This document shows positions 1,849 to 38,644 of a DNA stretch of 46,189 bases, piece by piece (position 1 is the stretch's first letter; the number at the start of each line of letters is the position of its first letter). Made by a program: the position numbers and the translations under genes. A model generated the notes under the pieces. That model did not search any database. It saw only the letters and a list, made by a program, of their open reading frames with translations, and was not told the origin of the DNA. Origin of the DNA: a virus; the IMG/VR virus record IMGVR_UViG_3300025302_000001; one strand, 5' to 3'.

Positions 1849-2748
1849 CTACATAGTCTTCAGAACCGGCACAGGAGGCGCTCCATGCGCCTGCGCCAGC
1901 GGAACGTAATCTGGCGGCCACTGCGCCGAATGCCACCACCCGCCCTTGCCATCGCGCGGATATGCCTTGCCCAGCTTGGCTTTGCCGAATGCGTCCCAAG
2001 CGTCCTGTTCTTCGCTGCCGAACTTGGCGTAGAAGCCGGCGGCGGGCTGCGGCGCCTCGAACGCCTCAACGGCGCTTTCGATGAAATCCTCCGAGTTCAG
2101 CCAGCTTGCGGGCATCGGAACAAACTCCGTGCCGATGCGCTTCAACTTCCGCATCTCCTCGGCATGCCGCCGGACAGCAATACTGATCGCCTGGGGAGAG
2201 ACGCCCGTTTTCACGAGCGCAAGGTACTTTCGCTCGGCGGACTTCCAACCATAGTTGCCGGCGCGCTTCGGATAGTCCTTTTTGAACTTTTCAAAATCCT
2301 CATTCGAAGGCGAAGCCGCACGAGAACGCGGAGCGTTCGGAGGTACTAGGTCCAAGGTACTAGGTACTAGGTCCGTAGTCGAAGCCTCGCGAACATTCGC
2401 GATAACTCGCGAGCCCTCCACGAATTCCGGAAGACGCGACTTCGACGGCTTATCAATCTTCTGATGTTCCAACCACTTAACGATTTCGAGGTACTGAGCA
2501 CCATCGACTTCGTAGCGGCGGATCTTCTCGCCCTGCTCCAACTCGTCCAACCAACCATCTATCAGGTCGCGGGCATCGTCATCATACGGATAGAGAAGGC
2601 TCGCGAGCATTCGCGAGGCCGCGCGAGCCCTCCCGGCATCGTCAACAATTGTCCAGAGTTGGACATAGAGCAGCCTTGCATCGCGCGAAAGTCGCCCGAC
2701 GCTCTCGGATTGCGGAAATTCGGGCTTTATCGTGCGAATGCGAGCCAT
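1849..2748 (-). CDS. Replication-initiator-like protein (N-terminal winged-helix type MARIRTIKPEF module, C-terminal phage replication-associated domain)
   Basis: Start reset to MARIRTIKPEF (ATG 2748, junction with the HNH stop). The C-terminal FEKFKKDYPKRAG...VPMPASWLN pattern is common in alphaproteobacterial prophage replication genes. Iteron-like repeats lie inside the linker. Confidence 0.5.
   Translation of the reverse strand: MARIRTIKPEFPQSESVGRLSRDARLLYVQLWTIVDDAGRARAASRMLASLLYPYDDDARDLIDGWLDELEQGEKIRRYEVDGAQYLEIVKWLEHQKIDKPSKSRLPEFVEGSRVIANVREASTTDLVPSTLDLVPPNAPRSRAASPSNEDFEKFKKDYPKRAGNYGWKSAERKYLALVKTGVSPQAISIAVRRHAEEMRKLKRIGTEFVPMPASWLNSEDFIESAVEAFEAPQPAAGFYAKFGSEEQDAWDAFGKAKLGKAYPRDGKGGWWHSAQWPPDYVPLAQAHGAPPVPVLKTM
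2342..2374. repeat. Iteron-like triple repeat GGTACTAGG (2342, 2356, 2363) inside the initiator-like gene; candidate origin
   Basis: ggtactaggtccaaggtactaggtactaggtcc read directly. An AT-rich inverted repeat TTTTGAA/TTCAAAA lies at 2280..2296. Confidence 0.45.
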
Positions 2749-3287
2749 CAGCGTCCCGCACTCCGGATCTTGTTCCAGCACACGCCGCAAAAATATTTCC
2801 AGACCGCGTATCCGCTATTCTTTCTAGCACAAGCGATGTTCATCGCCTCTCGCACCTCGAACACATCGAGCCTTTCGATGAACATGCGAATGCTGATAAT
2901 CCCATCCTTCGGCATCGCTGCCATGGCAAAATATTCAAGGAATATTCCAGCTACGGACCACGCATCTTCGTCTCTGCGCTCTTCGCGGAGTTCGAGGATC
3001 TGATAATAGGCGCGAAGCTGAGCCTCACGCTCGGCGACCTGGACGGCTTTTTCCTCAAGCGACTGGGGGGCACTCGACAGCAGGCCGGCACCCTTGCCGC
3101 GGTTGCAGTCCCAACAAGCCGTCAGTAGGTTGTCGATGTCGTTAGTCCCGCCCTCCGCTACCGGATGGATGTGGTCCACCTCAAGCAGGACGGTCTCCGA
3201 AGGGTGCGCGCCGCAATATGCGCACTGGAACCCATCCCGCTTGAATATGTCAAAGCGGGTCTTCTTAGAAAGTCCAACCCGCGCCAT
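2748..3287 (-). CDS. HNH endonuclease
   Basis: FKRDGFQCAYCG...LEVDHIHPVAEGGTNDIDNLLTACWDCNRGKG. ATG at 3287 is coupled to the GapR stop. Confidence 0.9.
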   Translation of the reverse strand: MARVGLSKKTRFDIFKRDGFQCAYCGAHPSETVLLEVDHIHPVAEGGTNDIDNLLTACWDCNRGKGAGLLSSAPQSLEEKAVQVAEREAQLRAYYQILELREERRDEDAWSVAGIFLEYFAMAAMPKDGIISIRMFIERLDVFEVREAMNIACARKNSGYAVWKYFCGVCWNKIRSAGR

Positions 3288-3538
3288 CACCCGATCCCCA
3301 GCTCGTTGCTATAGAGATCGATCATCGCCTCTCTGTTGCGGCGCTTATCGGCATCTTCGCGTAGAGAGCGAATGATAGCTCGCAGCGCCGGCAAATCGTA
3401 CCCGGCCGACTTCGCCTCAGCGAATACATCTCGAATATCGCTCGACACCTCGTCGCGATCGTCCATCAGGCGATTGATGCGCTCTACGAGCGCCTTGAGT
3501 TGCCCCTGGCTGTTATGGCCGGCTTCCATGTGATGCAT
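3287..3538 (-). CDS. gapR: GapR-like DNA-binding protein (DUF2312/UPF0335)
   Basis: GQLKALVERINRLMDDRDEVSSDIRDVFAEAKSAGYDLPALRAIIR...EAMIDLYSNELG aligns by eye along its length with Caulobacter GapR. Confidence 0.85.
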   Translation of the reverse strand: MHHMEAGHNSQGQLKALVERINRLMDDRDEVSSDIRDVFAEAKSAGYDLPALRAIIRSLREDADKRRNREAMIDLYSNELGIG

Positions 3539-3896: not shown

Positions 3897-4072
3897 GCCG
3901 CGCGGTTCTCCTTGCGGAGTTGTTTCAGGATCGCGCCCTCCAGCAAGGACTGGAGTTCGTTGCGCCGGACCGAATGCGGCTTCTCGGCCGCGACCAACGC
4001 ACGCAGATGGGCAATGCGGTGATGCAGCGGAAGCCGCCTCATGCGTGAGACGATCTCATGGATCGGCGTCAT
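3893..4072 (-). CDS. Hypothetical protein (59 aa)
   Basis: MTPIHEIVSRMRRLPLHH... has ATGA overlaps at both ends (4069-4072 and 3893-3896). The longer track ORF 3893..4390 overlaps the DnaA-like gene. Confidence 0.45.
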   Translation of the reverse strand: MTPIHEIVSRMRRLPLHHRIAHLRALVAAEKPHSVRRNELQSLLEGAILKQLRKENRAA

Positions 4073-4560
4073 GCGAACCTCACCATCAGTGAATTGACCC
4101 TGTTGCGGAAGTCGAAATCCATCTCCATCATTGCCTCGACGCGCTTGAGGCCGTGCAGCACCGTCGTATGATCCTTGCCGCCGAAGTGTCTGCCGATCTG
4201 AGGCAGCGACCACTCCAGTAGTTGCTGGCAGAGGTACATCGCGACCCAGCGGGGGACCGTGACATTGTTCGTCCGGCGCGTAGACCGCATGTCGAGAACG
4301 GAGATGTTGAATTCCGCCGCGACGACGGACTGGATCGTCTTGCAGAAGGACGGGAGCCTCTGAGGCATCGTCACCAGGTCCCAGCACCAAAGCGACGGCC
4401 AGAAGGATTCCGCCGACGGCACATCAATGGCCGCGGGCTTGACCTTCAGCGGGATGATATCCGCCTCTGTCAGATGAGAAACGACGGCCTTGGTCGGCAC
4501 AGCGCCAAGGCGCACCAGCCGGGCCTTGCGCTCGGCATGCAATTGTTCTGCGAGTGTCAT
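4069..4560 (-). CDS. DnaA domain IV (DnaA-box binding HTH) protein without an AAA+ module
   Basis: RSTRRTNNVTVPRWVAMYLCQQLLEWSLPQIGRHFGGKDHTTVLHGLKRVE closely matches the DnaA C-terminal DNA-binding domain. Confidence 0.9.
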   Translation of the reverse strand: MTLAEQLHAERKARLVRLGAVPTKAVVSHLTEADIIPLKVKPAAIDVPSAESFWPSLWCWDLVTMPQRLPSFCKTIQSVVAAEFNISVLDMRSTRRTNNVTVPRWVAMYLCQQLLEWSLPQIGRHFGGKDHTTVLHGLKRVEAMMEMDFDFRNRVNSLMVRFA

Positions 4561-5712: not shown

Positions 5713-5985
5713 ATGGGAATGCCGAACTTTCCGGAAGTTGCCATAGCTCCGGACACTTTTGGGCTGCCGGAGTACAAAGTAAGCGAGATGAGCGGCGAGA
5801 TCGAAGGCAACGGGCACGATGTTCGCCTCGTCTTCGGCGCCAAGCGATTCGGCCAACTCAATTGGCTCTACACGGTCGTGTGCTCGCCTGCGGACCTCAT
5901 CGAACTCTCGCAACAGTGCGAAGCGCTCGCTGTCGAGGCGATCAGGATGTCCGCAGTTACGGAGCGGCGCCGGACCGGTCATTGA
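5713..5985 (+). CDS. Hypothetical protein (90 aa) on the opposite strand inside the leftward operon
   Basis: Hand-counted codon-position GC pattern (pos3 > pos1 > pos2) favours this frame over the antisense 168-aa ORF 5476..5982. Composition looks protein-like. Confidence 0.5.
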   Translation: MGMPNFPEVAIAPDTFGLPEYKVSEMSGEIEGNGHDVRLVFGAKRFGQLNWLYTVVCSPADLIELSQQCEALAVEAIRMSAVTERRRTGH

Positions 5986-6182
5986 GTCGCCTCATCCATC
6001 TTCAGGAAGTCGGTCGGCGTTACAGCGCCTCCGGTTTCCTTGAGGACGGCCTTCGCCTGGTCATGCTTGATCCAGAAAGTTCCCTTGCACCAACCCGTGA
6101 TGGTTTGCGGTGAGACGCCAATCCGCGCCGCAAAATCCTTGCGCTTGATGCCGTGTTGAGAAAGCCAATCTGAAAGCTGCAT
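5979..6182 (-). CDS. Cro-like HTH regulator (67 aa), first gene of the leftward operon
   Basis: IKRKDFAARIGVSPQTITGWCKG is an HTH. It is divergent from the XRE repressor across an operator-bearing spacer. Confidence 0.75.
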   Translation of the reverse strand: MQLSDWLSQHGIKRKDFAARIGVSPQTITGWCKGTFWIKHDQAKAVLKETGGAVTPTDFLKMDEATQ

Positions 6183-6193
6183 AGTGAACCCAT

Positions 6194-6280
6194 AGCATTA
6201 CTGAAAAAGCGCCGCAAGCGTTTTCTTCAGTATTGCTTTATTCCGTCATTTCGCAGTGCAGCTAGACTTTCAGTATGGCT
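6194..6280. promoter_or_regulatory. Left operator cluster: three TTTCAGTAATGCT-like sites (6194..6206 reverse, 6225..6237, 6268..6280)
   Basis: agcattactgaaa, cttcagtattgct and tttcagtatggct read directly. The last one overlaps the repressor ATG. Confidence 0.6.
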
Positions 6281-6631
6281 AGAAGACCGATGAACCCCCA
6301 GCAGGTCCAGACCCGCTTCAAACAGCGGCGCCGGATTTTCCTGCGGCAGTGGCGTAAGTACCGGGGGATGACCCAGGAACAGGTCGCCGAGTACATGGGC
6401 TGGTCAGTGAGCAATGTGTCCCAGCTTGAGCGAGGGGAGCAGGGGTACAGCGACGAAGGGCTGGCGAAGCTCGCGGAGCTTTTACACTGCACTCCAGGCC
6501 AGATCTTGGAAGTGGACCCGACCGACGACAATGCGATCTGGTCACTGTGGGAGCGGGCCAAGCCGGGCCAGCGGACCGCCCTTCTGGAGGTCGCCAAGGG
6601 GATGGTAGGCAAGACAGGGACAGACGACTAA
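6275..6631 (+). CDS. XRE-family HTH repressor (CI-like, no S24 peptidase domain)
   Basis: GMTQEQVAEYMGWSVSNVSQLERGEQ is an HTH. Monocistronic, with its own terminator and operator repeats on both sides. Confidence 0.8.
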   Translation: MARRPMNPQQVQTRFKQRRRIFLRQWRKYRGMTQEQVAEYMGWSVSNVSQLERGEQGYSDEGLAKLAELLHCTPGQILEVDPTDDNAIWSLWERAKPGQRTALLEVAKGMVGKTGTDD

Positions 6632-13779: not shown

Positions 13780-14153
13780 ATCGTCTGCTCACACTGGCTC
13801 AGGCGGCGGCCGAGCTGGGTGTGTCAAAGCGCTGGTTTCAGTATTGGCTTGCCCAAAACCCAGTGGATAGCGCAGGAATTCCGTTTTACGTTCCGATCGG
13901 TCGGAACAAGCGTTTCGACCAAGCCGATATCGGCCGGATCAAATCATCCATTCGTGAGGGGGAACGATGCCGCTTAAACTCTATCGGCGCAACGGGATCT
14001 ACCATTATCGCGGAACAGTTGGCCCAGCTGGCAAGCGCAAGCGTCTTCGGGGTTCGTGCCAAACCACGAACCAAGACATCGCAGCGCGTCAGATTGCGGA
14101 GCTTGAAGCCGGATACTGGAAAGGTCATTTCGATGGACCAGCAGCGATCCTGA
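13776..14153 (+). CDS. xis: Excisionase-like HTH protein; the functional 3' end is uncertain because the ORF runs 187 nt into int
   Basis: LLTLAQAAAELGVSKRWFQYWLA...IPFYVPIGRNKRFDQADIGRIKSSI is an excisionase-type HTH located directly upstream of int. Confidence 0.6.
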   Translation: MNRLLTLAQAAAELGVSKRWFQYWLAQNPVDSAGIPFYVPIGRNKRFDQADIGRIKSSIREGERCRLNSIGATGSTIIAEQLAQLASASVFGVRAKPRTKTSQRVRLRSLKPDTGKVISMDQQRS

Positions 14154-14980
14154 CATTCGCCCATGCCTGCGAGCTTTATCGCGCCGCCGGCAAGGCAGAC
14201 CGCTTCCTCGATCCGATTGCGAAGTTTCTCGGTAACACCCTGGTCAAGGACTTGTCCGAAGGCTCGATCCAGATGATGGCGAAGAAGCTGTATCCGGACT
14301 ACAGCGGAGCGAGCCTCAACCGCGCCGTGATCGTGCCGACGCAGGCTGTGATTAATCACGCAGCCAAGGCGAAACTCTGCTCGCCGATCAAGGTGACGTG
14401 GTACAAGGAAGAGACGAAAATCAAAGAGCCGGTCACACTCGAATGGATCGAGGAATTCCGGAAAGAGGCGTCCCCTCACCTCGGCGCCATGGCCCTGTTC
14501 ATGTACCTGACCGGCGCGCGACCTAGCGAGGCAATTGCTGTGCAGTGGTCCGACATCGACCTGACCGACCGAACGGTCCGGATTCGCCAGACCAAGACCA
14601 GTGCGGAGCGGGTCTCTCACCTTCCGATGCCGCTTGTCGTCGCGCTCGCCAATCTGCCGAAGGTCCCCAAGCGGGGCGTGTTTGTCTACCAGCGCAGGCC
14701 CGACGCCTGGAACGCTTGGCAGGGCGCCATCGGCCGCGCCGGCATCAAGCCGCTGACCATGCATTCCTGCCGCCACGGCTTCGCTACAGGGCTTCTCCGG
14801 CGCGGGGTGGACGTTGTGACCGTCGCTTGGTTGGGCGGCTGGGCGAGCCCCGCACAGGTTCTACAGACCTATGGGCACGCCACGAAGAACCCGCGGCTGA
14901 CAGAGTTGCTCATTGGCACTGAACTGACACACATCCTCAACGACGAGGCGAAAAACAAAGACGCTGCAAAGGCTTCCTGA
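13967..14980 (+). CDS. int: Tyrosine integrase
   Basis: MPLKLYRRNGIYHYRG N-terminus. Catalytic signature residues: TGARPSE, HSCRHGFAT, LQTYGH. Confidence 0.95.
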   Translation: MPLKLYRRNGIYHYRGTVGPAGKRKRLRGSCQTTNQDIAARQIAELEAGYWKGHFDGPAAILTFAHACELYRAAGKADRFLDPIAKFLGNTLVKDLSEGSIQMMAKKLYPDYSGASLNRAVIVPTQAVINHAAKAKLCSPIKVTWYKEETKIKEPVTLEWIEEFRKEASPHLGAMALFMYLTGARPSEAIAVQWSDIDLTDRTVRIRQTKTSAERVSHLPMPLVVALANLPKVPKRGVFVYQRRPDAWNAWQGAIGRAGIKPLTMHSCRHGFATGLLRRGVDVVTVAWLGGWASPAQVLQTYGHATKNPRLTELLIGTELTHILNDEAKNKDAAKAS

Positions 14981-17445: not shown

Positions 17446-17637
17446 ATGAGCAACGAACAGATCTATTACGACCGCCTGAAACGCATCGCCAAGGGGTCCC
17501 AGAAGACGAGCCAGCTTCGTCGCAATAGCGAACGCGGCTTCGGACTGGATTATATCGAAGCGCTGGAGATGGCCTACGAGAACCTGCAAGAAGCGGCGGC
17601 AAGCGCTATCCGCGGCAAGCGCAGGCCGAAGCAATAG
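17446..17637 (+). CDS. Hypothetical basic protein (63 aa)
   Basis: Strong third-position GC by eye. Confidence 0.55.
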   Translation: MSNEQIYYDRLKRIAKGSQKTSQLRRNSERGFGLDYIEALEMAYENLQEAAASAIRGKRRPKQ

Positions 17638-17958: not shown

Positions 17959-18242
17959 TGGACGATCTATTTCAGCTCGACCGAGCGCTGACGCCAGCGG
18001 AGCGCCGCCGGCTGAATACGAAGCCGAAGGTGAAGAAGACCGGCCACGCTTGGCGCCCTGGTACGGGGCCGCAGGGCGAGACCTGCAAAACCTGCAAGCA
18101 TCTGGTCCGCAAGCAAATGTCCAAGGTCTACTTGAAGTGCGGTCTAATGCGAGCGCACTGGACTGGCGGCGGTGGGACCGATGTTCGCGCGGGCGATCCA
18201 GCTTGCCGCGAGTGGGCTTCAGAGCATTCGAATGGCAAGTGA
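17958..18242 (+). CDS. Hypothetical Cys-rich protein (94 aa)
   Basis: ETCKTCKHL...KCGL...DPACREW. TAATG coupling. Confidence 0.6.
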   Translation: MDDLFQLDRALTPAERRRLNTKPKVKKTGHAWRPGTGPQGETCKTCKHLVRKQMSKVYLKCGLMRAHWTGGGGTDVRAGDPACREWASEHSNGK

Positions 18243-30730: not shown

Positions 30731-31630
30731 CTACAGGAAGTTCAAGAGACCCATGATGCCGCTGCCGGAGCTTGCGCCGCCCGCTCCGTTCGAGAAGCTG
30801 CCAAGCCCGCTCATGGCCTGCTGGAATTGCTGCCAGCCGGAAGCCTGGTTCGTGGTGTTGCTCGTGCCGCTTGATGTGCCGCCAAGTCCCGCGATGGGAA
30901 CGCCGATGTTAGCGAGCATTCCAAGGTTCTGTAGCGGAATGCCGAGCCTCTGCGCCTCAGCCGCAAGCGTGGACTTCGCGCCCTCGTTCATCGCATCGAG
31001 GCCGGTCCCGACCGAACTGACGCCAGTGCCGCGATTGGTGTTATAGAGCTGCTGCAAGCCGCTGTTCAGGCCCGCAGTGGTATTGCCGGCGCTGTAGAGA
31101 TTGCCGGCTGCGCCCTGCTGGTTCTGGATGTTCTGGTTGTATTGGGAGGCGATCGTTGGGGCGACGCCCTGTGCGATGCCACGTCCCAGCGCCTGAGAGT
31201 TGGCACCCGAGAAGTCGCGGCCAGCGGCGGCAAACGTTCCGTTCGTGCTGTTCGTGATGTCGGACACCATCGTATTGAGGGCATCCTTGAATCCGGGCGT
31301 ATCGTAGGGGTTGTAGTTCGTGTTCGACGCCAGCGGATTGGTCTGGTTGTAGTACTGCTGGTAGGCGTTGTTGATCGCTCCCTGCTGGTTCAGCGCCCCG
31401 CCGCCGTTGAGCATATCCGAGGTGTAGCTCTGGATGGCAGGATTGTAGGCGTTCGCCGTTGCGTTGTTCTGCTCGATCGTGTTGAGCGCGTTGTTCTGCG
31501 CCCCCGTCAGGCCGGTTTGCGGCAGGTAACTATTGAGCTGGCTGAGGATGCCAGTCATGGTGCCCTGCGCGGGCGCCCAAGGATTGGTCTCGCTCTGCTG
31601 CGTGGTGGTGCTAGTGCTCTTGCCGCCCAT
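30731..31630 (-). CDS. Putative internal virion/ejection protein (299 aa, Gln/Asn/Gly-rich)
   Basis: Composition and position only. Confidence 0.4.
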   Translation of the reverse strand: MGGKSTSTTTQQSETNPWAPAQGTMTGILSQLNSYLPQTGLTGAQNNALNTIEQNNATANAYNPAIQSYTSDMLNGGGALNQQGAINNAYQQYYNQTNPLASNTNYNPYDTPGFKDALNTMVSDITNSTNGTFAAAGRDFSGANSQALGRGIAQGVAPTIASQYNQNIQNQQGAAGNLYSAGNTTAGLNSGLQQLYNTNRGTGVSSVGTGLDAMNEGAKSTLAAEAQRLGIPLQNLGMLANIGVPIAGLGGTSSGTSNTTNQASGWQQFQQAMSGLGSFSNGAGGASSGSGIMGLLNFL

Positions 31631-31655
31631 CAGGCTTGGCCTTTCGTGTAGCTCA

Positions 31656-31684
31656 TAAAAAATCCCGCCAGAGGGCGGGAGTTT
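31656..31684 (-). terminator. Intrinsic terminator inside the late operon, downstream of the inserted 118-aa gene
   Basis: The minus strand reads TCCCGCC-CTCT-GGCGGGA followed by TTTTTT. Confidence 0.8.
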
Positions 31685-31693
31685 GGTCGTTCA

Positions 31694-31721
31694 TTAGCGA
31701 TTATTAGCGATCTTTAGCGAT
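31694..31721. repeat. Three exact TTAGCGAT octamers with exact 10-bp phasing (31694, 31704, 31714)
   Basis: attagcgatt attagcgatc tttagcgatc read directly. Confidence 0.85.
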
Positions 31722-31723
31722 CT

Positions 31724-32080
31724 TTACCCAGCCATAAGCCGGTTTCCGATTATCCGCGCGTTCCGAATGTTTTCGTTGATCTCTTCAATCATGAGAGCCG
31801 CGGCGCCACTCAATTTCCAGTCAATACCCACTTCTTGGGCTAGTTCAGCATCTAGATGGACAGTGGCGATGGGTGCAGACGAGCGGGTCGCTCGCTCGTA
31901 TATAGCCTTGTCCGAAACAGGAAGAGTGGCTTTGTTCCTGATCGCGTCAGCTTGCTTTTTTTGGCCAATAGCCTCCAAAAGCTCCATCTCGCCAGCATGG
32001 AAACCGCAATGATCGCAATCTCCGCTCTCTTGGCGCTTGCAGCCTTCGAAATCACATGGCAACCATATTAGTTCTGACAT
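31724..32080 (-). CDS. Hypothetical 118-aa protein with an N-terminal Cys cluster (moron; antirepressor or defence candidate)
   Basis: Start reset to MSELIWLPCDFEGCKRQESGDCDHCGFH (GAGGGA upstream). Lower GC than the flanks. A GTG at 32143 is an alternative start. Confidence 0.55.
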   Translation of the reverse strand: MSELIWLPCDFEGCKRQESGDCDHCGFHAGEMELLEAIGQKKQADAIRNKATLPVSDKAIYERATRSSAPIATVHLDAELAQEVGIDWKLSGAAALMIEEINENIRNARIIGNRLMAG

Positions 32081-32101
32081 CGTCCCTCGATGGAGTTCTA
32101 A

Positions 32102-32305
32102 ATGACCAAAGCCCGCATCTATCTCAAAGAATGGCGCAACCACAAAGGCATCACTCTAGAAGACCTTGCATCGCGCATCGGCATAGAGGCGCCGAGCGTT
32201 GCTCGGCTTGAACACACACCACTGGTATTCAGTTCACAGACACTCAGCGATGTGGCCGAGGCTCTCGGAGTAGAGCCTCACGAGTTGCTAAAGCCGCCGT
32301 CATAG
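32102..32305 (+). CDS. XRE-family HTH protein (67 aa), antisense to the late operon
   Basis: LKEWRNHKGITLEDLASRIGIEAPSVARLE is an HTH. GGAG 6 nt upstream. Confidence 0.8.
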   Translation: MTKARIYLKEWRNHKGITLEDLASRIGIEAPSVARLEHTPLVFSSQTLSDVAEALGVEPHELLKPPS

Positions 32306-32322
32306 CCCGGCCAGTTCCAGGC

Positions 32323-32347
32323 AACCTGCAAGCTTTTCTTGCAGGTT
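32323..32347. other. Perfect 10-bp-stem hairpin between convergent genes
   Basis: AACCTGCAAG-ctttt-CTTGCAGGTT. No strong U-tract on either strand. Confidence 0.6.
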
Positions 32348-32372
32348 CAATTTACCATTACCCGAATCAACC

Positions 32373-32774
32373 TCAAAGCACTTTTTCTAAGACAACATGC
32401 TCGACGCGGTATCCGTCAAGCACTCGTTCCCAGCCCTTTCGGCCGTAAATTCTCATCGTTGTGCAGCCTTCCGCTTTCGCGTACCTTTCAATCTCGGCGA
32501 ACAGTGGAAGCCAGCGGTCTCGGTCGTAACCAGCGCACGCCGTCAGGACGCAAACTTTATCGTGCGGCTTCACAAGCTGCGTGGTCGCCGCCGCCATGAT
32601 CTCGCGACCATTCCAAGCGATCCACACCAGTTGCATGCCCGTCAGAACATCGCTTTCGATGTCCGCGAAACTGCTCAGCCCGGTACGCTCAACTGCCGCC
32701 CTGATCTTGTCGCGAACATGCGGCCACATCTCATCGATGCGCGCCGGATCGACGCAGATTAGTTCAGCCGACAA
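32373..32774 (-). CDS. Hypothetical protein, tentatively GNAT-fold-like (start uncertain: TTG 32774 or ATG 32729)
   Basis: The C-terminal AEIERYAKAEGCTTMRIYGRKGWERVL resembles acetyltransferase-fold C-termini. Weak call. Confidence 0.3.
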   Translation of the reverse strand: MSAELICVDPARIDEMWPHVRDKIRAAVERTGLSSFADIESDVLTGMQLVWIAWNGREIMAAATTQLVKPHDKVCVLTACAGYDRDRWLPLFAEIERYAKAEGCTTMRIYGRKGWERVLDGYRVEHVVLEKVL

Positions 32775-38612: not shown

Positions 38613-38644
38613 CCAAAAAAGAAAGGCGGGGCCGAAGCCCCGCC
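38613..38644 (-). terminator. Strong intrinsic terminator after the capsid/decoration genes
   Basis: The minus strand reads GGCGGGGC-TTCG-GCCCCGCC followed by TTTCTTTTTT. Confidence 0.85.

What the first reader, a model, noticed from the sequence alone, without database searches (positions are those of the whole stretch)
31656..32347. Hairpin-bracketed two-gene insertion (XRE HTH facing a Cys-rich 118-aa protein) inside the tail/ejection module: second immunity region or defence cassette?
All flanking genes are late, minus-strand virion genes. This ~0.65-kb segment looks clearly less GC-rich than they do.
- It carries a plus-strand 67-aa XRE HTH gene (32102..32305), antisense to the whole late operon.
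- Only 21 bp away from that start codon (ATG 32080 vs ATG 32102), a divergent 118-aa gene begins. Its product has an N-terminal CX4CX7CX2C cluster (CDFEGCKRQESGDCDHC) and no motif I recognise.
- The segment is bracketed by a perfect 10-bp-stem hairpin (32323..32347) and an intrinsic terminator (31656..31684).

A repressor-type gene facing a small effector gene, embedded among late genes, is the architecture of P22 immI (mnt versus arc-ant). The main repressor candidate here (6275..6631) has no S24 autocleavage domain, so an antirepressor route to induction would fit. The alternative is a prophage-expressed exclusion or defence moron. With start codons this close, both promoters must lie inside the partner gene, which implies mutual transcriptional interference.
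Basis: partly seen in the sequence, partly recalled or inferred. Interest (0 to 1): 0.72.

Follow-up and report, generated by a model that had tools for sequence, protein, structure and literature searches.

The report
Portable repressor-plus-zinc-protein moron in phage
A 742-bp foreign two-gene cassette (a small repressor facing a rare zinc-binding protein of unknown function) sits in a hypervariable insertion hot spot of a temperate soil podophage's late operon; it is a real accessory "moron", but probably not an antirepressor-based second immunity region.

Summary

The segment (31631-32372) is a true insertion. In 55 related phages that keep both flanking genes, none carries it. In 22 of them the flanking genes abut or overlap; the other 33 have gaps of 35 nt to 4.7 kb, and the larger gaps hold diverse orphan cargo. 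The junction is therefore a moron hot spot, like the P22 'ant moron'.

The same pair (XRE HTH divergent from a Cys-module gene, start codons 21-28 bp apart) occurs in one other phage from the same sample. There it lies more than 10 kb from that junction, so the pair is a portable module.

The Cys module is extremely rare: three other proteins in 1.8 billion cluster representatives. One of them is fused to a ribbon-helix-helix DNA-binding domain. No family or fold match was found.

The antirepressor (immI-like) reading is weakened. The two carrier phages have unrelated primary repressors, one with an S24 domain. A phage whose primary repressor is 94% identical to the window's lacks the module.

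Best reading: a self-insulated, repressor-controlled accessory cassette whose zinc-protein cargo has an unknown target. Interest is moderate.

The parts
31631..32372 (.). Inserted segment (742 bp) between the start codon of the ejection-protein-like gene p299 and the stop codon of the conserved p171 gene.
   Evidence: In the closest relatives (L074, L075, L012, L080) the two genes overlap, reading ...GAGAAGCGCCTTGGGCGGTAAG... (alignment A3). In ppBeUSDA76-2 they are 3 nt apart. GC is 0.51-0.53 against 0.58-0.65 in the flanks. GC3 is 0.52 and 0.58 against 0.70-0.85.
31657..31680 (-). Intrinsic terminator ending the Cys-gene transcript: TCCCGCC-CTCT-GGCGGGA followed by TTTTTT.
   Evidence: It is one of only two strong minus-strand terminators between 20 and 40 kb. 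It is absent from relatives that lack the insert.
31688..31727 (-). Array of 10-bp phased direct repeats (G[CG]TAAnnAnC, 3.6-4 copies) directly after the Cys-gene stop codon. It places TAA in all three frames.
   Evidence: TRF: period 10, 3.6 copies, 88% matches. A homologous 3-copy array lies at the 3' end of the P0003 gene in L005 and L008. It is absent from the homologues that lack an HTH partner. Function unknown.
31724..32080 (-). Gene for a 118-aa protein. Residues 1-57 form a 4-Cys zinc-type module: W6, C9, G13, C14, R16, G20, C22, C25, G26, F27, H28, G30 and E31 are invariant. Residues 58-118 form a C-terminal extension with no homologues, predicted helical.
   Evidence: dN/dS is about 0.1 over codons 1-37 compared with L005. 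No family or fold match.
32027..32068 (.). A 42-nt stretch (codons 5-18 of the Cys gene) that is 100% identical to the homologous module in the other phage. It lies 34-75 nt upstream of the HTH start codon.
   Evidence: 0 synonymous changes in 13 degenerate codons, against 13 of 23 further downstream. Third-position identity is 23/30 against 20/49 in the HTH gene (Fisher p = 0.0025); the homologues without an HTH partner vary normally here. No RNA structure signal. Either an overlapping cis-element (a candidate HTH promoter or operator) or a short conversion tract.
32081..32101 (.). 21-bp spacer between the divergent start codons. It holds both ribosome-binding sites (GGAG 6 nt before ATG 32102; GAGGGA before ATG 32080 on the minus strand) and a 5-5-5 palindrome, CATCG-TCCCT-CGATG.
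   Evidence: Read directly from the sequence. The spacer is not conserved in L005, where the HTH is also divergent.
32102..32305 (+). Gene for a 67-aa XRE/Cro-C1 helix-turn-helix protein, antisense to the late operon.
   Evidence: Pfam HTH_3 E 7.7e-9. PHROG transcriptional regulators. 41% identical to the HTH partner in L005/L008. The best annotated relatives occupy the CI position of CI/Cro switches in rhizobiophages.
32323..32347 (.). Perfect palindrome AACCTGCAAG-N5-CTTGCAGGTT, 17 nt after the HTH stop codon. It could be a weak plus-strand terminator or an operator-like site. It is not a terminator on the late strand.
   Evidence: It is not present in L005.
30731..31630 (-). Downstream flank: p299, an ejection-protein-like virion gene. 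In the window it has its own ATG and RBS; in relatives without the insert it starts at a TTG that overlaps p171.
   Evidence: PHROG 4287 'DNA ejection protein', E 1.4e-6..
32373..32729 (-). Upstream flank: the conserved 118-aa core of ORF p171 (function unknown; PHROG 25629).
   Evidence: It is conserved in relatives over residues 1-118 of this core.

Best explanation
The segment is an autonomous, horizontally acquired two-gene moron. It has landed in a hypervariable insertion hot spot of a temperate SU10-like podophage, between a conserved gene of unknown function and the ejection-protein genes.

The 67-aa XRE protein is a CI-type repressor. I infer that it binds in or near the 21-bp divergent region and holds transcription of the facing gene, and probably its own, in check. 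The facing gene encodes the cargo: a small zinc-binding protein whose 4-Cys core is conserved between carriers.

The strong terminator after the cargo gene and the hairpin after the HTH gene insulate the cassette from the late operon. The cassette can therefore be expressed on its own schedule, in the prophage or early after entry. Late transcription must read through it to reach the ejection genes.

The same core occurs in phages with unrelated primary repressors. Elsewhere it is fused to an RHH DNA-binding domain, or sits among early genes beside a DNA methyltransferase. The cargo therefore most likely acts on a target outside the phage's own lysis-lysogeny switch: a host factor, another phage, or nucleic acid. 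That makes it an accessory competition or host-takeover function under dedicated repressor control.

Shown: the insertion, its foreign composition, the terminator, the portability of the module, purifying selection on the cargo, and the family identity of the HTH. Inferred: repression by the HTH, independent expression, zinc binding, and the class of target.
For: - Indel: none of 80 fetched relatives has either gene nearby. Of the 55 that keep both flanking genes, 22 have a gap of -2 to +10 nt, 1 has 35 nt, 8 have 85-166 nt, 5 have 473-669 nt and 19 have 1.1-4.7 kb; the larger gaps hold diverse orphan cargo, some of it antisense. The closest relatives have overlapping flanking genes, and ppBeUSDA76-2 has a 3-nt gap.
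- Foreign composition.
- Own terminator, one of only two strong ones in the late operon.
- Portability: a homologous pair (HTH 41% identical; Cys protein 69% identical over 58 aa; divergent starts 28 bp apart) occurs in L005-L008, L011 and L094. It sits at the end of the integrase-side operon, while that phage's p171/p299 junction (L090, same contig) holds only a 166-nt gap.
- In both contexts the Cys gene runs with the surrounding operon (late in one phage, early in the other) and the HTH gene runs antisense. This argues for module-internal promoters.
- Selection: dN/dS is about 0.1 on the Cys core.
- HTH class: its best annotated relatives are CI-position repressors.
- Link to DNA-binding partners: P0004 is an RHH_1-Cys fusion (24.1 bits against a 20.5 cutoff).
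- The module is accessory in both carriers. The window has its own XRE pair and integrase. The L097 phage has an HTH+S24 repressor facing a YdaS/Cro-like gene.
- P22 precedent for a hypervariable, independently expressed moron in the late operon: PMC2629481.
Against: - No promoter could be identified on either strand, so independent expression is not demonstrated.
- No operator is defined. The spacer palindrome has only 5-bp arms.
- Zinc binding is inferred from the Cys pattern alone. The structure models are weak (pLDDT 42 and 61) and give no fold match.
- The family has only four members, so the comparative evidence is thin.
- The C-terminal 60 aa have no homologues and could be a fortuitous read-through extension.
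- The terminator would also attenuate the essential ejection genes unless late transcription resists termination, and that was not shown.
Confidence: 0.55

Rival explanations
1. A second immunity region like P22 immI. The Cys protein is an antirepressor that inactivates the phage's S24-less primary repressor (6275-6631). The XRE protein plays the Mnt role and keeps it silent in the lysogen.
For: - The position inside the late operon next to the ejection genes mirrors the P22 ant moron (PMC2629481).
- The layout is a divergent repressor facing a small effector.
- The window's primary repressor has no S24 domain.
- One homologue is fused to an Arc/CopG-type RHH domain.
Against: - No similarity to Ant, Arc, Mnt or any antirepressor family.
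- The other carrier of the module has an unrelated primary repressor with an S24 domain. Its Cys core is nevertheless about 90% identical to the window's over residues 4-34.
- A phage whose primary repressor is 94% identical to the window's (L092) lacks the module.
- No significant or conserved SOS box.
- No sar-like RNA family.
Confidence: 0.12
2. A miniature CI/Cro-type switch captured from another element. The XRE protein gives the lysogen immunity against heteroimmune phages that carry matching operators. The Cys protein is a zinc-finger DNA or RNA binder in the Cro position, and it recognises the conserved 10-bp phased repeats and/or the 42-nt island.
For: - The closest annotated HTH relatives are CI-position repressors with back-to-back divergent partners.
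- The two DNA stretches conserved between carriers (the 42-nt island and the 10-bp repeats) both lie in or next to the conserved Cys gene. The HTH gene and the spacer have diverged.
- The RHH fusion links the module to DNA binding.
Against: - The module has never been seen at a primary switch position.
- The repeat motif does not recur elsewhere in the genome above chance.
- No known DNA-binding zinc-finger family or fold matches.
- The repeats could be slippage products, and the 42-nt island could be a conversion tract. A Rad52-family recombinase is present in the other carrier.
Confidence: 0.15
3. A toxin-antitoxin or abortive-infection pair: the XRE protein is an antitoxin or repressor and the Cys protein is a small toxin.
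For: - The XRE HTH gives weak matches to HipB, HigA and Y4mF antitoxin models (E 1e-3 to 0.1, far below their cutoffs).
- Another relative (L089) carries a 160-aa gene beside an XRE gene at the same hot spot.
Against: - The orientation is divergent rather than operonic.
- No toxin or defence family matches.
- Homologues occur without any HTH partner in early operons (L010), or fused to an RHH domain.
Confidence: 0.08
4. Decaying selfish or junk DNA with no current function, merely tolerated at a permissive junction.
For: - The junction tolerates many unrelated inserts.
- The family is tiny.
- The C-terminal extension has no homologues.
Against: - Both ORFs are intact, each with a ribosome-binding site.
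- dN/dS is about 0.1 on the Cys core.
- The pairing and orientation are preserved in a second phage even though the HTH genes are saturated at synonymous sites.
- An intact canonical terminator is present.
Confidence: 0.1

Closest known systems
P22-like 'ant moron' / immI region (mnt, arc, ant, sar, sieA) within the late operon
   Same: - It is an independently organised insert inside the late operon of a temperate podophage, next to the ejection-protein genes.
- The site is hypervariable among relatives: ten types in sixteen P22-like genomes (PMC2629481), and many types among the 55 relatives here.
- It contains a small repressor gene transcribed against the late operon, facing a small gene.
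   Different: - The repressor is an XRE HTH, not an RHH like Mnt or Arc.
- There is no Ant homologue and no sar-like RNA.
- The effector is a 4-Cys protein from an undescribed family.
- The carriers do not share a primary repressor, so antirepression of the phage's own repressor is unlikely.
Lambdoid morons in the sense of Hendrix and Juhala: promoter, gene and terminator units of deviant composition (own knowledge, and as summarised in PMC2629481)
   Same: It is present in one genome and absent at the same junction in relatives. It has lower GC and GC3 than its neighbours and carries its own intrinsic terminator.
   Different: It has two divergent genes with its own regulator rather than a single cargo gene. 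No promoter was demonstrated.
CI/Cro divergent switches of rhizobiophages (RHph_I1_23 genes 051/052; PBC5 gp40/gp39)
   Same: The cassette HTH is about 41% identical to the CI-position proteins of these switches. The divergent starts are very close or overlapping there too.
   Different: The partner in the Cro position is a Cys-module protein rather than an HTH protein. The pair is accessory, and each carrier has a separate primary switch.
Anti-defence loci with a dedicated HTH autorepressor (acr-aca type; own knowledge)
   Same: - A small, rare, fast-evolving orphan protein sits next to a small HTH regulator at a variable site among structural genes.
- One homologue is fused to a DNA-binding domain. 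From my own knowledge, this recalls Acr-repressor fusions.
- Another homologue lies beside a DNA methyltransferase in an early region.
   Different: - The genes are divergent, whereas an aca gene normally lies downstream of acr in the same operon.
- No library of Aca or Acr families was available to test membership.
- No activity data exist.

Membership tests
XRE / Cro-C1 HTH family (67-aa protein) | Pfam HTH_3, HTH_26 or HTH_31 domain scoring above the curated threshold | tested here: met
   HTH_3 scores 35.9 bits against a cutoff of 23 (E 7.7e-9). HTH_26 scores 35.9 against 22. HTH_31 scores 32.2 against 27.
Moron | Present in one phage and absent at the same junction in otherwise syntenic relatives | tested here: met
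   None of 80 fetched relatives has either cassette gene. In 22 of the 55 with both flanking genes, those genes abut or overlap. In ppBeUSDA76-2 the gap is 3 nt.
Moron | Nucleotide composition differs from the surrounding operon | tested here: met
   GC is 0.51-0.53 against 0.58-0.65. GC3 is 0.52 and 0.58 against 0.70-0.85.
Moron | Own transcription terminator | tested here: met
   A canonical stem plus T6 at 31680-31657 on the minus strand.
Moron | Own promoter (independent expression) | tested here: inconclusive
   No sigma-70-like site was found at standard or relaxed stringency. Indirect support: the module keeps the same internal orientation in a late and in an early operon context.
P22 immI (mnt / arc-ant) | Antirepressor of the Ant family | tested here: not met
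   The 118-aa protein has no Pfam, PHROG or NCBIfam hit, and no tblastn hit in 50,697 phage records.
P22 immI (mnt / arc-ant) | Ribbon-helix-helix repressors (Mnt, Arc) | tested here: not met
   The cassette regulator is an XRE HTH. An RHH domain appears only as a fusion in the distant homologue P0004.
P22 immI (mnt / arc-ant) | Embedded in the late operon at a variable site, with the repressor gene transcribed against that operon | tested here: met
   PMC2629481 for the P22-like arrangement.
P22 immI (mnt / arc-ant) | The effector binds and inactivates the primary repressor | not testable with these tools
   The indirect evidence points against it. The two carriers have unrelated primary repressors, and a phage with a 94%-identical repressor lacks the module.
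Type II toxin-antitoxin (XRE antitoxin) | Co-directional two-gene operon with a recognisable toxin family | tested here: not met
   The genes are divergent. No toxin or PADLOC family matches.
Restriction-modification controller (C protein) | A small HTH gene next to endonuclease and methyltransferase genes | tested here: not met
   There are only weak PADLOC Control_protein hits (E 5.5e-4). No R or M gene is adjacent, and the flanks are virion genes.
acr-aca anti-defence locus | A small effector upstream of, and co-transcribed with, an Aca HTH autorepressor | tested here: not met
   An HTH gene is adjacent, but the two genes are divergent. Membership of the Aca and Acr families could not be tested because no library was available.
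Ogr/Delta-type zinc-finger late activators | C-x2-C-x22-C-x4-C spacing (own knowledge) and conservation among relatives as an essential late regulator | tested here: not met
   The spacing here is C-x4-C-x7-C-x2-C. The gene is absent from all relatives.

The most novel reading that the evidence does not exclude
The 4-Cys module defines a previously undescribed family of small zinc-binding phage regulators. It always works with a dedicated DNA-binding partner, either an XRE repressor encoded divergently or an RHH domain fused in cis. The XRE-Cys pair, together with its two conserved DNA stretches (the 42-nt island and the 10-bp phased repeats), would then be a new kind of portable genetic switch that can plug into either early or late operons of temperate phages.
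Probability: 0.2. Interest if true: 0.6.

Novelty: new variant of a known kind. Interest (0 to 1): 0.42.

Why it matters
If the reading is right, temperate Bradyrhizobium-type podophages have an accessory-gene hot spot equivalent to the P22 'ant moron'. One of its cargoes is a self-regulated module built around an uncharacterised zinc protein.

Such hot spots are productive places to look for new superinfection-exclusion, anti-defence or induction-control functions. Nearly all the cargo seen here in relatives is unannotated.

The practical value is modest. The protein family is very rare, so any function would be of narrow distribution. Its association with two different classes of DNA-binding partner does make it a tractable small system for studying how accessory phage genes are kept under control.

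Tried and rejected
- Family searches on the 118-aa protein (Pfam, PHROGs, PADLOC, NCBIfam) found nothing.
- tblastn against 50,697 phage records found nothing.
- The k-mer/HMMER search of 5.8 billion clusters found only the protein itself. The exhaustive HMMER search found three relatives, all limited to the N-terminal module. The profile search added none.
- DNA-level scans for the module found one other phage in viral contigs, none in 185,579 species genomes, and the same phage again in JGI metagenomes.
- PDB sequence searches gave only chance-level hits.
- AlphaFold: the single-sequence model had pLDDT 42, which is unusable. With four sequences pLDDT was 61, and 70-83 for residues 1-60. Foldseek against PDB and BFVD gave a best E-value above 3.
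- HNH or homing endonuclease for the Cys protein: rejected, with no HNH match at E <= 0.1.
- SOS (LexA) control: one 1-mismatch GTTC-N7-GTTC site lies at 32071-32085. There are 49 such sites in the window against 36 expected, and the site is not conserved in L005. Rejected as evidence.
- Rfam scan of the cassette found nothing.
- RNA structure in the 42-nt island: z-scores from +0.9 to -0.9, so rejected.
- Target-site duplication at the insert ends: the left and right junctions share only a weak resemblance to the ...AAGCGCCTT... target. Inconclusive, so not claimed.
- Recurrence of the repeat and palindrome motifs at the primary switch: not above chance.
- The cargo at the same junction in relatives has no Pfam or PADLOC identity.
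- The 139-aa GTG start: rejected, because homologues start at the ATG-equivalent position and the upstream region is not conserved.
Full report
OBSERVATION.
- A 67-aa plus-strand ORF lies at 32102-32305 and a 118-aa minus-strand ORF at 31724-32080. Their ATG codons are 21 bp apart.
- The 118-aa product starts MSELIWLPCDFEGCKRQESGDCDHCGFH..., a C-x4-C-x7-C-x2-C cluster.
- The 67-aa product is a standard XRE/Cro-C1 HTH (Pfam HTH_3, E 7.7e-9, above threshold).
- The 32323-32347 element is a perfect 10-bp inverted repeat with a 5-nt loop (z about -3.8).
- The 31663-31680 element is a canonical intrinsic terminator on the minus strand, with a GC-rich 7-bp stem and T6.
- GC drops to 0.51-0.53 against 0.58-0.65 in the flanks. 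GC3 of the two genes is 0.52 and 0.58 against 0.70-0.85 in neighbouring virion genes.
- The public gene call for this locus truncated the Cys gene to 84 aa. Homologues start at the ATG-equivalent codon and the N-terminus is under purifying selection, so 118 aa is the right reading.

GENOME CONTEXT.
- The window is essentially a whole temperate phage genome. It has SU10-type portal, capsid and adaptor proteins and an integrase at 13967-14980.
- It has a conventional divergent XRE pair at 5979-6182(-) and 6275-6631(+). The latter is 118 aa with no S24 domain.
- A minus-strand late operon runs from about 46 kb down to about 20 kb.
- The only isolate relative is Bradyrhizobium phage ppBeUSDA76-2 (OP596614; 70% nt identity over part of the tail region). 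It is a spontaneously produced temperate podophage of B. elkanii (PMC10127595, Table 1).
- The cassette lies between p171 (conserved, function unknown) and p299 (PHROG 'DNA ejection protein').

IT IS AN INSERTION AT A HOT SPOT.
- In ppBeUSDA76-2 the homologues of p299 and p171 are 3 nt apart.
- A search with the neighbouring p488 protein found 236 relatives in IMG/VR, and 80 were fetched. None of the 80 encodes either cassette gene near this junction.
- Among the 55 loci with both flanking genes, the gap is -2 to +10 nt in 22, 35 nt in 1, 85-166 nt in 8, 473-669 nt in 5 and 1.1-4.7 kb in 19.
- The larger gaps carry many unrelated gene sets, some of them on the antisense strand. One (L089) includes another XRE gene. 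None of the cargo has a significant Pfam family or a PADLOC defence match.
- In the closest relatives the end of p171 overlaps a TTG start of p299. In the window, 742 bp (31631-32372) are interposed and p299 has its own ATG and RBS.
- The cassette's terminator is one of only two strong minus-strand terminators in 20 kb of late operon. The other follows the capsid genes.

THE PAIR IS A PORTABLE MODULE.
- Exhaustive HMMER against 1.8 billion representatives found only three relatives of the 118-aa protein, and all match only residues 1-58: P0003 (58 aa, 69% identity), P0004 (122 aa) and P0005 (61 aa).
- Invariant positions are W6, C9, G13, C14, R16, G20, C22, C25, G26, F27, H28, G30 and E31.
- P0003 lies divergent from a 68-aa XRE gene with 28 bp between the start codons. 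That HTH is 41% identical to the window's.
- This second carrier phage (L005-L008, L011, L094, L097) was recovered, among other places, from the same JGI sample as the window.
- Its module sits at the distal end of the integrase-side operon, next to the convergent end of the late genes. Its own p171/p299 junction (L090, the same contig as L011) holds only a 166-nt gap.
- In both phages the Cys gene runs with the surrounding operon (late in one, early in the other) and the HTH gene runs against it.
- P0004 is a fusion of a CopG-type RHH domain (Pfam RHH_1, above threshold) to the Cys module.
- P0005 sits without an HTH partner in a run of small early genes next to an N6/N4 DNA methyltransferase.
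- DNA-level scans, which do not depend on gene calling, found no further copies in viral, genome or metagenome collections.

WHAT THE PROTEINS ARE.
- The HTH's best annotated relatives are CI-position repressors of divergent CI/Cro switches in rhizobiophages RHph_I1_23 and PBC5. In PBC5 the divergent starts even overlap. The same back-to-back geometry occurs at the primary switch of the second carrier.
- The Cys protein matches no Pfam, PHROG, PADLOC, NCBIfam or PDB sequence.
- A four-sequence AlphaFold model is moderately confident for residues 1-60 only. It finds no structural neighbour.
- Residues 59-118 have no homologues at all.
- Against the L005 copy, dN/dS is about 0.1 over codons 1-37, and the HTH genes are close to synonymous saturation (dS about 1.7).

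TESTING THE ANTIREPRESSOR IDEA.
- The second carrier has a primary repressor of a different kind: 229 aa, HTH_3 plus Peptidase_S24, facing a YdaS/Cro-like gene. It has no detectable similarity to the window's primary repressor.
- A phage whose primary repressor is 94% identical to the window's (L092) is not among the carriers of the Cys module.
- A conserved Cys core (only two substitutions in residues 4-34) is hard to reconcile with a target that is not shared.
- The argument that an S24-less repressor needs an antirepressor does not apply to the second carrier.
- No significant or conserved SOS box is present, and no known RNA family.
- The immI-like position and layout are real. The antirepressor mechanism is not supported, although the divergent C-terminal extension could in principle confer a new specificity.

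UNEXPLAINED DNA FEATURES.
- (i) Codons 5-18 of the Cys gene (32027-32068) are 100% identical between the two carriers. None of 13 degenerate codons changed, whereas 13 of the 23 conserved residues further downstream carry synonymous changes. Third-position identity is 23/30 against 20/49 in the HTH gene (Fisher p = 0.0025). The homologues without an HTH partner vary normally here.
- This island lies 34-75 nt upstream of the HTH start, where its promoter or operator should be. No sigma-70-like promoter and no RNA structure could be detected. A short recombination tract between co-resident phages is an alternative.
- (ii) Directly after the Cys-gene stop codon there are 3.6-4 direct repeats with an exact 10-bp period. 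A homologous 3-copy array lies at the same place in the second carrier, although the adjacent coding sequence is unalignable. The array puts TAA in all three frames. Its function is unknown.

CONCLUSION.
- The finding is real and is best described as a self-insulated, repressor-controlled accessory cassette (a moron) at a hypervariable site of the late operon. It carries a rare, portable XRE-plus-zinc-module pair.
- I put 0.55 on this reading: the HTH represses the divergent unit, and the zinc protein acts on a target outside the phage's own switch.
- I put 0.12 on an immI-like antirepressor, 0.15 on a captured mini-switch with a DNA-binding zinc protein, 0.08 on a toxin-antitoxin or abortive-infection pair, and 0.10 on non-functional DNA.
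- In kind it is a new variant of a known phenomenon. The protein family is new but very small.

Noticed in passing
L012-L091 (the p171/p299 junction in relatives); window 31631-32372: The junction between p171 and the ejection-protein gene is a hypervariable hot spot. Among 55 relatives the gap ranges from -2 nt to 4.7 kb, and the larger gaps hold many unrelated gene sets. These include apparent signal-peptide or membrane proteins (judged by eye from the sequences, not tested) and antisense genes, all without a significant Pfam family or a PADLOC match.
   Followed up: partly
L089:9606-10997: At the same hot spot another relative carries a 160-aa ORF, a 142-aa XRE HTH protein (Pfam HTH_3, E 2e-6) and a protein with a sub-threshold DUF6941 match (25 bits against a 27 cutoff), all co-directional. 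It may be a TA-like or regulatory cargo.
   Followed up: partly
window 32027-32068: A 42-nt stretch within the Cys gene is 100% identical to the copy in the other carrier phage, although neighbouring codons show frequent synonymous change. It is either an overlapping cis-element or a short conversion tract.
   Followed up: partly
window 31688-31727; L008 426-455: Direct repeats phased at 10 bp (G[CG]TAAnnAnC) lie at the 3' end of the Cys gene in both carriers and put TAA in all three reading frames. They are absent from the homologues that lack an HTH partner.
   Followed up: partly
window 17582-17590 and 18081-18098: The 9-mer ACCTGCAAG, which forms the arm of the 32323-32347 palindrome, also occurs exactly at 17582 and at 18090. 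The latter is part of a tandem ACCTGCAAA-ACCTGCAAG. About 0.35 exact copies are expected by chance in the window (my own estimate). It may be a regulator site or coincidence.
   Followed up: no
window 38625-38644: A strong GC-rich hairpin (8 G-C pairs) with T-tracts on both strands lies just downstream of the capsid-gene block. It is the only other strong terminator in the late operon, and it suggests that late transcription must tolerate terminators.
   Followed up: no
window 5979-6631: The primary switch region is a 67-aa HTH gene (-) facing a 118-aa HTH gene (+). The 92-bp spacer between them contains an imperfect palindrome (ACTGAAAAAGCG..CGTTTTCTTCAGT).
   Followed up: partly
L097:1505-2496; L096 (PBC5 gp39/gp40): The primary CI/Cro-type pairs of related rhizobiophages have divergent start codons that touch or overlap. 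The very short spacer in the cassette is therefore not unusual for this phage group.
   Followed up: partly
window 2748-3290 and 4069-4560: The leftward early operon encodes an HNH endonuclease (Pfam HNH, E 5.8e-15) and a protein with a DnaA C-terminal HTH domain (E 9.5e-27).
   Followed up: no
window 31724-32080 (public call = P0001, 84 aa): Automated gene calling started this gene at an internal TTG, so the Cys module is missing from protein databases. Small Cys-module genes may be under-counted for the same reason.
   Followed up: yes
window 32071-32085: A GTTC-N7-GTCC site, one mismatch from the alphaproteobacterial SOS-box pattern, overlaps the Cys-gene start codon. It is not significant (49 such sites against 36 expected) and is not conserved in L005.
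   Followed up: yes
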